From a virus (Duplodnaviria > Heunggongvirae > Uroviricota > Caudoviricetes), in the IMG/VR virus record IMGVR_UViG_2529292909_000008, positions 1 through 13,427 of that record: 13,427 nucleotides of DNA, one strand, 5' to 3'. Every line of letters begins with the position of its first letter. The first letter of the stretch is position 1. Positions 8,972-9,093 of this stretch are shown in pieces. Under the pieces are notes generated by a model that did no database searches, had not been told where the DNA came from, and saw only the letters and a list, made by a program, of their open reading frames with translations. The position numbers and the translations under genes were made by a program.

Positions 8972-8998
8972 TTGACATGGTGTTGACACCGGTAATAT
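8972..8998 (+). promoter_or_regulatory. Candidate sigma70 promoter (TTGACA, 15-bp spacer, TAATAT; second TTGACA at 8983-8988)
   Basis: Consensus -35 hexamer and near-consensus -10 on the plus strand, in an intergenic gap between minus-strand genes. Confidence 0.35.
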
Positions 8999-9052
8999 CT
9001 GTTAGGTAAAAAGGTGCACTGCATTTTTTGCTTTGGATATAACGATCTTTTT

Positions 9053-9093
9053 GCCGCCGGTTTCTTGTTTTCCCTTACCGGCGGCATTTTTTT
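9053..9093 (+). terminator. Strong Rho-independent terminator (plus strand)
   Basis: GCCGCCGGT, 15-nt loop, ACCGGCGGC, then A followed by seven T (9087-9093). Confidence 0.6.

What the first reader, a model, noticed from the sequence alone, without database searches (positions are those of the whole stretch)
8972..9093. Promoter plus terminator defining a short plus-strand transcript (candidate sRNA)
A consensus TTGACA (8972-8977) with TAATAT 15 bp downstream is followed about 50 nt later by a strong intrinsic terminator (9053-9093, 9-bp GC stem, seven T). This lies on the strand opposite to all flanking genes; the only plus-strand ORF here is antisense to the esterase and runs through the terminator. 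The simplest reading is an untranslated RNA of about 90 nt.
Basis: seen in the sequence. Interest (0 to 1): 0.4.

Follow-up and report, generated by a model that had tools for sequence, protein, structure and literature searches.

The report
Prophage small RNA, EcOnc33 relative
The promoter-plus-terminator unit is real and is a sequence variant of EcOnc33, an Hfq-bound small RNA already detected by experiment in E. coli O157:H7 prophages, so it is a further member of a known but uncharacterised class and not a new kind of element.

Summary
The interpretation as a short untranslated plus-strand RNA holds, because this intergenic region is 82% identical to the one in O157:H7 Sakai prophage Sp6 that encodes EcOnc33. 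Tree et al. (2014) recovered EcOnc33 by Hfq crosslinking in 5 of 5 datasets, predicted a Rho-independent terminator, and saw about 71 nt on a Northern blot. Their probe maps exactly onto the Sakai homologue.

The promoter assignment is probably wrong. A second TTGACA (8983-8988) and TAAAAA (9007-9012) are conserved in all. This points to a 5' end near 9017-9019 and an RNA of about 75-80 nt.

Published RNase E-CLASH hybrids show the 5' segment of EcOnc33 pairing across the arcA start codon. The window variant carries one substitution (T9025) that weakens the predicted duplex from -19.3 to -14.7 kcal/mol.

Here the esterase-sRNA-DUF1378-DUF826 cassette sits at the right end of a Mu-like prophage, whereas the O157-type homologues sit in lambdoid prophages. 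The element is not in Rfam, and it is not detectably related to PasA/PasC, Esr41 or AgvB/AsxR. Expression of this variant is untested.

The parts
8983..8988 (+). TTGACA, the likely -35 hexamer of the sRNA promoter
   Evidence: Invariant in 10 of 10 variants that carry it. In the 11th variant (1604D011) an 11-bp deletion leaves a single TTGACA at the same 17-bp distance from TAAAAA.
9007..9012 (+). TAAAAA, the likely -10 element, 18 bp after the conserved TTGACA. It matches TATAAT at 4 of 6 positions and lacks the final T.
   Evidence: Present in 11 of 11 variants. It is placed correctly for a 5' end near 9017-9019, which matches the Sakai Hfq-peak edge and the Northern size. That it acts as a promoter is inferred, not shown.
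8972..8998 (+). It may be a minor or variant-specific alternative promoter.
   Evidence: The sequence is present. It is not conserved: the -35 is TTGACA, TTGATA, TCGACA, TTGGCA or TTAATA, and the -10 is TAATAC in 9 variants and TAATGC in 1. TAATAT occurs only in the Mu-associated variant.
9013..9094 (+). Predicted sRNA (EcOnc33-family variant). The most likely 5' end is 9017-9019 and the 3' end lies within the T run at 9087-9093, giving about 75-80 nt.
   Evidence: It is 82% identical to the Sakai EcOnc33 locus (alignments). The family covariance model scores 87 bits at 9013-9094, but the window sequence was in the model. The fold is -23 kcal/mol, z = -4.8.
9019..9040 (+). 5' single-stranded seed region, CTGCATTTTTTGCTTTGGATAT. 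T9025 replaces the G of the O157 EcOnc33 sequence.
   Evidence: The two EcOnc33 CLASH hybrids I read (arcA and ECs0890) both use this segment of EcOnc33. The predicted duplex with the arcA start region is -14.7 kcal/mol for the window variant and -19.3 for Sakai.
9052..9093 (+). Rho-independent terminator: 9-10 bp GC-rich stem, 15-nt U/C-rich loop and U7 tail. It is the probable Hfq-binding 3' module.
   Evidence: The stem is kept in all variants without compensatory changes. An intramolecular CLASH hybrid joining the two arms of the Sakai RNA was recovered (count 99). The minus strand has no T run after the hairpin.
8774..8956 (-). DUF1378 gene. Its start codon is 27 bp from the conserved -35 hexamer and it is divergent from the sRNA.
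   Evidence: Pfam PF07125, E = 9e-32. RefSeq annotation of identical DNA.
9101..11157 (-). SASA + DUF6645 carbohydrate esterase (NanS-p-like). It is convergent with the sRNA, and its stop codon is 7 nt beyond the T run. It is frameshifted in this window.
   Evidence: Pfam PF03629 and PF20350. Two 1-bp insertions relative to the intact FORC_069 gene.

Best explanation
The segment is a gene for a small Hfq-type regulatory RNA of the EcOnc33 family. It travels inside a mobile prophage cassette (sialate-esterase, sRNA, DUF1378, DUF826), which here lies at the right end of a Mu-like prophage.

Transcription most likely starts near 9017-9019, from TTGACA (8983-8988) and TAAAAA (9007-9012). It stops at the intrinsic terminator (9052-9093), giving an RNA of about 75-80 nt. 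The U-tailed terminator and the U-rich stretch before it would bind Hfq. The single-stranded 5' segment (9019-9040) would base-pair with mRNAs in trans.

The best-documented partner of the O157 homologue is the arcA translation start region. Pairing there would be expected to block initiation and recruit RNase E.

What is shown: the sequence features, the homology and synteny with EcOnc33, and the published Hfq binding, Northern size and CLASH hybrids of the homologue. What is inferred: expression of this variant, the exact 5' end and promoter, and any regulatory outcome on arcA or other targets.
For: Homology to a detected sRNA:
- The 151-nt intergenic region matches 361 of 5426 complete E. 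coli genomes. The O157:H7 type is 81.6% identical.
- In Sakai it lies between ECs_1527 (9-O-acetyl-neuraminic acid deacetylase) and ECs_1528 in prophage Sp6, on the strand opposite to both genes.
- The reverse complement of the EcOnc33 Northern probe matches that Sakai locus exactly.
- Tree et al. 2014, Table S2, lists EcOnc33 as an Hfq-CRAC peak passing 5 of 5 datasets, AUC 2.6e7, terminator predicted, Northern about 71 nt.

Structure:
- The terminator folds at -19.4 kcal/mol, z = -5.5. A T run follows it on the plus strand only.
- A CLASH intramolecular hybrid joins both stem arms in Sakai.

Promoter:
- TTGACA followed after 17-18 bp by TAAAAA is conserved in 11 of 11 variants, including one with an 11-bp deletion.
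- The 5' edge of the Sakai Hfq peak corresponds to window position 9012. I derived the +141 coordinate offset compared.

Target:
- A CLASH hybrid links EcOnc33 (CCTGCATGTTTTGCTTTGGAT) to ECs5359, with 5 reads, in replicates, in both orientations, FDR 2.7e-4.
- ECs_5359 is arcA, and the hybrid covers its start codon.
- The predicted duplex is -19.3 kcal/mol for Sakai (4 of 300 shuffles as good) and -14.7 for the window variant (17 of 300).
- The arcA start region is at least 99% identical in 5419 of 5424 genomes.

Not coding: the ATG present in the O157 RNA is ATT here.
Against: - No expression data exist for this variant or this strain.
- TAAAAA lacks the usually important final T of the -10 hexamer, so the promoter call rests on conservation and on indirect size evidence. 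The 5' end could also arise by processing.
- The stem shows no compensatory changes: 0 of 16 pairs covary. Structure support is therefore thermodynamic and from conservation only.
- Part of that conservation is forced by my search pattern for the IMG/VR loci. The six variants found by BLAST are free of this bias.
- The arcA link rests on 5 hybrid reads in a supplementary table. It has not been validated by reporter assays, and the seed substitution at 9025 weakens the pairing in this variant.
- The 15-nt terminator loop is larger than in typical intrinsic terminators.
Confidence: 0.75

Rival explanations
1. The RNA acts mainly in cis. It is perfectly complementary to the intergenic part of the esterase-DUF1378-DUF826(-holin) transcript. 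It, or its convergent promoter, could damp leaky expression of the cassette and late operon through antisense pairing with RNase III cleavage, or through transcriptional interference.
For: - The gene sits inside a co-directional operon on the opposite strand in every context.
- Tree et al. describe convergent sRNA genes at conserved positions downstream of the late promoter in at least eight Sakai lambdoid prophages.
- PasA and PasC occupy the equivalent slot after the esterase in EPEC.
Against: - The sRNA does not overlap either coding sequence or the DUF1378 ribosome-binding site. Predicted pairing of the seed with the DUF1378, DUF826 and esterase start regions is no better than shuffles.
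- The homologue was recovered on Hfq and in hybrids with unlinked core mRNAs, which is typical of trans-acting sRNAs.
- The 5' seed varies between variants. A purely cis-acting antisense RNA would not need this.
- The two modes are not mutually exclusive.
Confidence: 0.12
2. One reading: transcription starts about 9004-9006 from TTGACA (8972-8977) and TAATAT (8993-8998), giving an RNA of about 90 nt.
For: - This variant has a perfect -35 hexamer and a -10 hexamer with the key T, A and final T.
- A 90-nt RNA folds well: -27.9 kcal/mol, z = -3.5.
- TAATAT is specific to the Mu-associated variant, so a variant-specific promoter is conceivable.
Against: - A 15-bp spacer is poor for sigma-70 and was not called by the scan.
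- Neither hexamer is conserved in the family, and the pair is destroyed in one variant that keeps the rest of the gene.
- The homologue's Northern size is about 71 nt, and its Hfq-peak edge lies downstream of the start this promoter predicts.
Confidence: 0.1
3. No sRNA is made in this strain. The hairpin is only a one-way transcription stop or an mRNA-stabilising stem between the esterase and DUF1378, and the hexamers are inactive remnants.
For: - Expression is untested here.
- The cassette lies in a degraded context: the esterase is frameshifted and the prophage may be defective.
- The putative -10 element is weak.
Against: - On the minus strand the hairpin is followed by AAAAAG, not by a T run, so it cannot be an intrinsic terminator for the flanking genes.
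- The promoter elements, the 5' seed region and the terminator are kept together across lambdoid and Mu-like contexts at 80-100% identity.
- The O157 version is abundantly expressed and bound by Hfq.
Confidence: 0.03

Closest known systems
EcOnc33 (Tree et al. 2014, Mol Cell, Table S2; E. coli O157:H7 Sakai prophage Sp6)
   Same: - Homologous sequence: 81.6% identity over the whole 151-nt intergenic region.
- Same slot between the SASA/DUF6645 esterase stop codon and the DUF1378 start codon, on the opposite strand.
- Same terminator stem, GCCGCCGG/CCGGCGGC, and same loop core, CUUGUUUUCCCU.
- Same conserved TTGACA and TAAAAA elements.
   Different: - One substitution in the seed: CUGCAUG becomes CUGCAUU at 9025.
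- Two extra bases before the stem, and a loop shorter by 5-6 nt.
- A ninth T-A pair in the stem.
- TAATAT in place of TAATAC upstream.
- Carried by a Mu-like prophage, not a lambdoid one.
- EcOnc33 itself is listed only in supplementary tables and has no assigned function.
PasA / PasC (Pearl Mizrahi et al. 2021; Zhu, Shabalina & Storz 2026 preprint; EPEC E2348/69; EHEC homologues EcOnc51/52)
   Same: - Same kind of element in the same position: an Hfq-dependent sRNA of about 80-85 nt, encoded antisense immediately after the prophage sialate-esterase gene and before the lysis genes.
- A TTGACA -35 hexamer.
- A terminator with an 8-bp GC-rich stem and an unusually large loop.
   Different: No detectable sequence relationship.
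- The local alignment score is 19 against 17.2 +/- 2.2 for shuffles.
- The family covariance model gives PasA 9 bits (E = 4.6) and PasC 12.7 bits (E = 0.8).
- DUF1378 and DUF826 are absent from the PasA and PasC loci of E2348/69.
Esr41 (Rfam RF02676; EcOnc14)
   Same: An EHEC accessory-genome Hfq sRNA of about 74 nt, with a U-rich 5' part and a GC-rich terminator. There is a weak full-length cmscan alignment to the window (22 bits, E = 0.033).
   Different: The score is far below the gathering threshold (102 bits). The Sakai EcOnc33 locus gives no Esr41 match at E up to 10. The resemblance is therefore generic.
AgvB / AsxR anti-sRNAs (EcOnc01/02/03)
   Same: Prophage-encoded, Hfq-bound and convergent with late-operon genes. 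They combine a variable 5' end with a conserved 3' part.
   Different: They are 51-60 nt long and share a conserved 3' region of about 42 nt that is absent here: the motif search with up to 3 mismatches found nothing. They lie on the promoter-proximal side of the esterase, not after it.

Membership tests
EcOnc33 sRNA family | Sequence homology to the Sakai EcOnc33 locus over the full RNA | tested here: met
   81.6% identity over 151 nt by blastn, with colinear alignments. The published probe maps to the Sakai homologue. It does not match the window within 3 mismatches because of the substitutions and indels.
EcOnc33 sRNA family | Synteny: antisense, between the SASA/DUF6645 esterase stop codon and the DUF1378 start codon | tested here: met
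EcOnc33 sRNA family | Rho-independent terminator at the 3' end | tested here: met
   Tree et al. flag EcOnc33 as carrying a terminator.
EcOnc33 sRNA family | Same seed sequence and therefore the same targets (arcA start region) | tested here: inconclusive
   There is one G-to-T change at 9025 within the segment seen in the CLASH hybrids. The predicted arcA duplex weakens from -19.3 to -14.7 kcal/mol, and 17 of 300 shuffles do as well.
EcOnc33 sRNA family | Expressed as an RNA of about 71 nt and bound by Hfq | not testable with these tools
   Only the O157 homologue has data.
PasA/PasC sRNA family | Sequence and structure similarity to PasA or PasC | tested here: not met
   The local alignment is no better than shuffles. 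The covariance model gives E = 0.4-4.6 on the PasA and PasC loci.
PasA/PasC sRNA family | Position antisense, downstream of the prophage sialate esterase | tested here: met
   Searches compared.
Esr41 (RF02676) | Score at or above the Rfam gathering threshold | tested here: not met
   22.2 bits against 102. There is no hit for the Sakai homologue, and no Rfam family reaches its gathering score anywhere in the window.
AgvB/AsxR anti-sRNA family | Conserved 3' region of about 42 nt (GTATCTCATGC...GCCCGAAC) | tested here: not met
   No match with up to 3 mismatches.

The most novel reading that the evidence does not exclude
The cassette-borne sRNA is a horizontally mobile repressor of arcA translation, and perhaps of dps and other core genes. 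This would let a prophage retune the host's global aerobic/anaerobic regulator. The seed varies between prophage lineages (G or U at 9025, and more divergent 5' ends in L019 and 1604D011), which would give different target strengths or targets. The Mu-associated variant might additionally touch the phage's own com-mom switch, since the predicted pairing with the com start region is -29.4 kcal/mol with 8 of 1000 shuffles as good.
Probability: 0.25. Interest if true: 0.55.

Novelty: new member of a known kind. Interest (0 to 1): 0.3.

Why it matters
Prophage sRNAs that act on core regulators are one way that accessory DNA rewires E. coli physiology and virulence; AgvB, AsxR, StxS, Esr41 and HnrS are examples. 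EcOnc33 ranks among the more strongly Hfq-bound of the unannotated RNAs in the part of the Tree et al. table that I read. It has never been characterised, named or placed in Rfam, so genome annotation misses it.

This work adds three points:
- The family occurs in about 7% of complete E. coli genomes.
- It moves as part of an esterase-DUF1378-DUF826 cassette between lambdoid and Mu-like prophages.
- Published hybrids point to the arcA start codon as a target.

Together these give a concrete, testable hypothesis. As a discovery in its own right the finding is modest, because the element class and this very family were already detected by experiment.

Tried and rejected
- Rfam at gathering thresholds over the whole window gave no hits. 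In E-value mode there was only a weak Esr41 match, and it is not reproduced on the Sakai homologue.
- The INPHARED phage collection gave no match in near or distant mode.
- The GTDB species representatives gave no match for the terminator pattern. A second pattern, taken from the seed, gave only chance hits in unrelated phyla.
- Homology to PasA/PasC was rejected by alignment against shuffles and by the covariance model.
- The AgvB/AsxR 3' motif is absent.
- A minus-strand terminator reading was rejected because no T run follows the stem on that strand.
- A coding reading was set aside. The 105-codon plus-strand ORF is antisense to the esterase, and the short ATG frame of the O157 RNA is lost here. 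I did not test conservation of the longer frame across variants in detail; one search gives only the longest open stretches.
- Complementarity of the seed to 13 start regions in the window was tested. None was better than shuffles except com: 1 of 200, then 8 of 1000 with dinucleotide shuffles. That duplex is rich in G-U pairs, is not shared by other variants, and is not significant after multiple testing.
- Covariation in the stem was sought and none was found.
- I looked for published 5'/3'-end maps (Sy et al. 2020), but no supplement is held.
- A full-text search for 'EcOnc33' found no paper.

Full report
**1. The observation**

- TTGACA at 8972-8977.
- TAATAT at 8993-8998, after a 15-bp spacer.
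- A hairpin with arms GCCGCCGGT (9053-9061) and ACCGGCGGC (9077-9085). Adding T9052/A9086 gives 10 perfect pairs.
- A 15-nt loop, then A and seven T (9087-9093).

The hairpin folds at -19.4 kcal/mol, against -7.3 +/- 2.2 for dinucleotide shuffles (z = -5.5). The automatic terminator scan missed it only because it accepts loops of 3-8 nt. On the minus strand the stem is followed by AAAAAG, so it can stop plus-strand transcription only.

The hexamers alone are not remarkable.

**2. Surroundings**

Both flanking genes are on the minus strand. They are DUF1378 (8774-8956; PF07125) and a SASA + DUF6645 carbohydrate esterase whose stop codon is at 9101-9103. DUF826 lies further on (8484-8738).

Window 1-6612 is core E. 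coli DNA (the sbmA/ampH region). Window 6613-13427 is the right end of a Mu-like prophage. It carries Mom (PF25680), Com, a Gin-like resolvase, and tail-fibre and tail-fibre-assembly genes. The same prophage end sits at other chromosomal sites in other strains, as expected for a transposing phage.

**3. Relatives**

The 151-nt intergenic region matches 361 of 5426 complete E. coli genomes. Of these, 21 are at least 99% identical, 326 are 80-90% identical (mostly O157:H7, at 81.6%), and 14 are 60-80% identical.

In the O157-type genomes the same four-part module (esterase, this region, DUF1378, DUF826) precedes the holin and lysozyme genes of lambdoid prophages. A pattern scan of IMG/VR returned 49 further prophage contigs.

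Sorting all loci by context gives a clear split. The TAATAT variant occurs only with gin and mom, the Mu-like context. The TAATAC variants are mostly lambdoid, although three are also Mu-associated. The cassette therefore moves between phage types with the element inside it.

The INPHARED phage collection contains nothing similar. The GTDB species representatives do not contain it either.

**4. Identity**

Table S3 of Tree et al. 2014 (PMC4104026) lists a Northern probe for 'EcOnc33'. Its reverse complement, GTCCTGCATGTTTTGCTTTGGATATAACGACATTT, matches the Sakai homologue exactly. The match is at L009 2740-2774 on the minus strand, between ECs_1527 (9-O-acetyl-neuraminic acid deacetylase) and ECs_1528 in prophage Sp6.

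Table S2 of that paper describes EcOnc33 as follows:
- An Hfq-CRAC peak at 1557089-1557136 on the minus strand, in the coordinates of the older genome version.
- It passes 5 of 5 datasets, with AUC 2.6e7.
- A Rho-independent terminator is predicted.
- It was detected by Northern blot at about 71 nt.

RNase E-CLASH data (Waters et al., PMC5286369) include an intramolecular hybrid joining the two terminator arms (count 99) and about 40 intermolecular rows.

The window element is thus a variant of an sRNA verified by experiment. I found no paper whose main text mentions EcOnc33, and no Rfam family covers it.

**5. Promoter and ends**

I aligned 11 distinct variants.

- Its -35 hexamer appears as TTGACA, TTGATA, TCGACA, TTGGCA or TTAATA.
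- Its -10 is TAATAC in nine variants and TAATGC in one.
- In strain 1604D011 an 11-bp deletion leaves only 4 bp between the two hexamers.

A different pair is conserved. TTGACA (8983-8988) is invariant, and TAAAAA (9007-9012) lies 17-18 bp downstream in all 11 variants. In the deletion variant the remaining TTGACA sits exactly 17 bp from TAAAAA.

Coordinates can be transferred from Sakai. The CLASH coordinate of CCTGCATG... shows that the current Sakai record is offset by +141 from the coordinates used in the papers. The 5' edge of the Hfq peak then corresponds to window position 9012.

A start at 9017-9019 and an end in the T run give 75-80 nt.

TAAAAA lacks the final T of the -10 consensus, so the assignment rests on conservation and is not proven. 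In this variant the upstream TTGACA/TAATAT pair could add a minor longer form.

**6. Structure**

The predicted RNA has three parts:
- A weakly structured, U-rich 5' part.
- A U-rich stretch before the stem.
- The terminator.

None of the 16 consensus pairs shows compensatory change. Structure support therefore comes from energy and conservation only. The conservation of the stem and loop core in the IMG/VR loci was imposed by my search pattern. The six variants found by BLAST show the same conservation without that bias.

**7. Mechanism**

The top-scoring EcOnc33 hybrid in Table EV7 of Waters et al. joins CCTGCATGTTTTGCTTTGGAT to ECs5359. It has 5 unique reads, appears in replicates and in both orientations, and has FDR 2.7e-4.

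ECs_5359 is arcA. The hybrid fragment ...GGTAGCAAACATGCAGACCCC contains the arcA start codon.

Duplex prediction against the arcA start region:

| Variant | Energy (kcal/mol) | Shuffles as good |
|---|---|---|
| Sakai EcOnc33 | -19.3 | 4 of 300 |
| Window | -14.7 | 17 of 300 |

In the window variant, T9025 replaces the G that pairs with the C just before the AUG.

The arcA start region is at least 99% identical in 5419 of 5424 genomes, so the site exists in any host.

A second hybrid (2 reads, FDR 0.0065) uses the same sRNA segment and ECs0890. From the encoded peptide LIDHLDTMAERAV I read ECs0890 as dps; this rests on my own knowledge.

The most likely mode is therefore an Hfq-dependent, trans-acting sRNA whose 5' end pairs with mRNAs, with arcA initiation as the leading candidate target. 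The regulatory outcome is inferred. No reporter test is reported in what I could read.

**8. Rivals**

- *Cis-antisense or interference role on the cassette transcript.* This cannot be excluded and could coexist with trans action. However, the RNA does not overlap a coding sequence or ribosome-binding site, and its seed shows no better-than-random pairing with the neighbouring start regions.
- *Minus-strand terminator.* This fails for lack of a T run.
- *Coding reading.* This is unlikely, because the short ATG frame of the O157 RNA is ATT here.

**9. Comparison with known families**

- PasA and PasC of EPEC (PMC8550237, Table S6; bioRxiv 10.64898/2026.05.13.724894) occupy the equivalent slot after the esterase and look alike in architecture. 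They share no detectable sequence or model similarity with this element.
- Esr41 gives only a sub-threshold match that is not reproducible on the Sakai homologue.
- The conserved 3' motif of AgvB/AsxR is absent.

**10. Verdict**

This is a real sRNA gene, and it is correctly spotted. The promoter is probably mis-assigned. It is a new sequence variant, in a new phage context, of a family that has been detected by experiment but not characterised.

Noticed in passing
window 9101-11157 (minus strand); insertions near 9434 and 9670: The SASA/DUF6645 esterase gene carries two single-base insertions relative to the intact 2055-bp gene of FORC_069. This splits it into ORFs 9658-11157 and 9101-9592. 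It is either a pseudogene or an assembly error.
   Followed up: partly
window 6612/6613: This is the junction between core chromosome (sbmA/ampH side) and the right end of a Mu-like prophage (Mom, Com, Gin-like resolvase, tail-fibre genes). The same prophage end lies next to elfC in FORC_069 and next to rhsC/ybfB in JE86-ST05, which is consistent with transposition.
   Followed up: partly
window 8484-11157, compared with loci L004-L059: The esterase-sRNA-DUF1378-DUF826 cassette occurs both in lambdoid late regions (before holin and lysozyme) and between gin and com/mom of Mu-like prophages. The TAATAT promoter variant is found only in the Mu-like context.
   Followed up: yes
window 7587-7677 (com start region, minus strand) against 9013-9052: The predicted duplex between the window sRNA 5' part and the com ribosome-binding and start region is -29.4 kcal/mol, with 8 of 1000 dinucleotide shuffles as good. 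It has many G-U pairs, is not seen with other variants, and is not significant after testing 14 targets.
   Followed up: partly
window 8445-8498 (minus strand): A terminator-like hairpin, AAACCGGCAG...CTGTCGGTTT followed by T-rich sequence, lies just after the DUF826 stop codon. It probably ends the cassette transcript in the Mu-like context. It also gave the only weak secondary hit of the family model, at 21.8 bits.
   Followed up: no
window 11877-12019 and 13087-13227: These two segments match the JE86-ST05 prophage in inverted orientation next to the Gin-like recombinase. This suggests an invertible tail-fibre (G-like) segment that is in the opposite state in the two strains.
   Followed up: no
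L002 2766-2861 (minus strand), E2348/69: In EPEC a second hairpin plus T run (GCCAGCG...CGCTGGC TTTTTTT) abuts the esterase stop codon, downstream of PasA. This matches the reported minor 236-nt PasA form. The layout, with the terminator directly against the esterase stop codon, is the same as in the window.
   Followed up: partly
L008 (strain 1604D011) 2930-3105: This variant has an 11-bp deletion that fuses the two TTGACA repeats, and an 11-nt insertion in the sRNA 5' region (CTCCTGAATTTTTTGCTCAGCATATTTTTGC). Its seed is therefore substantially different.
   Followed up: no
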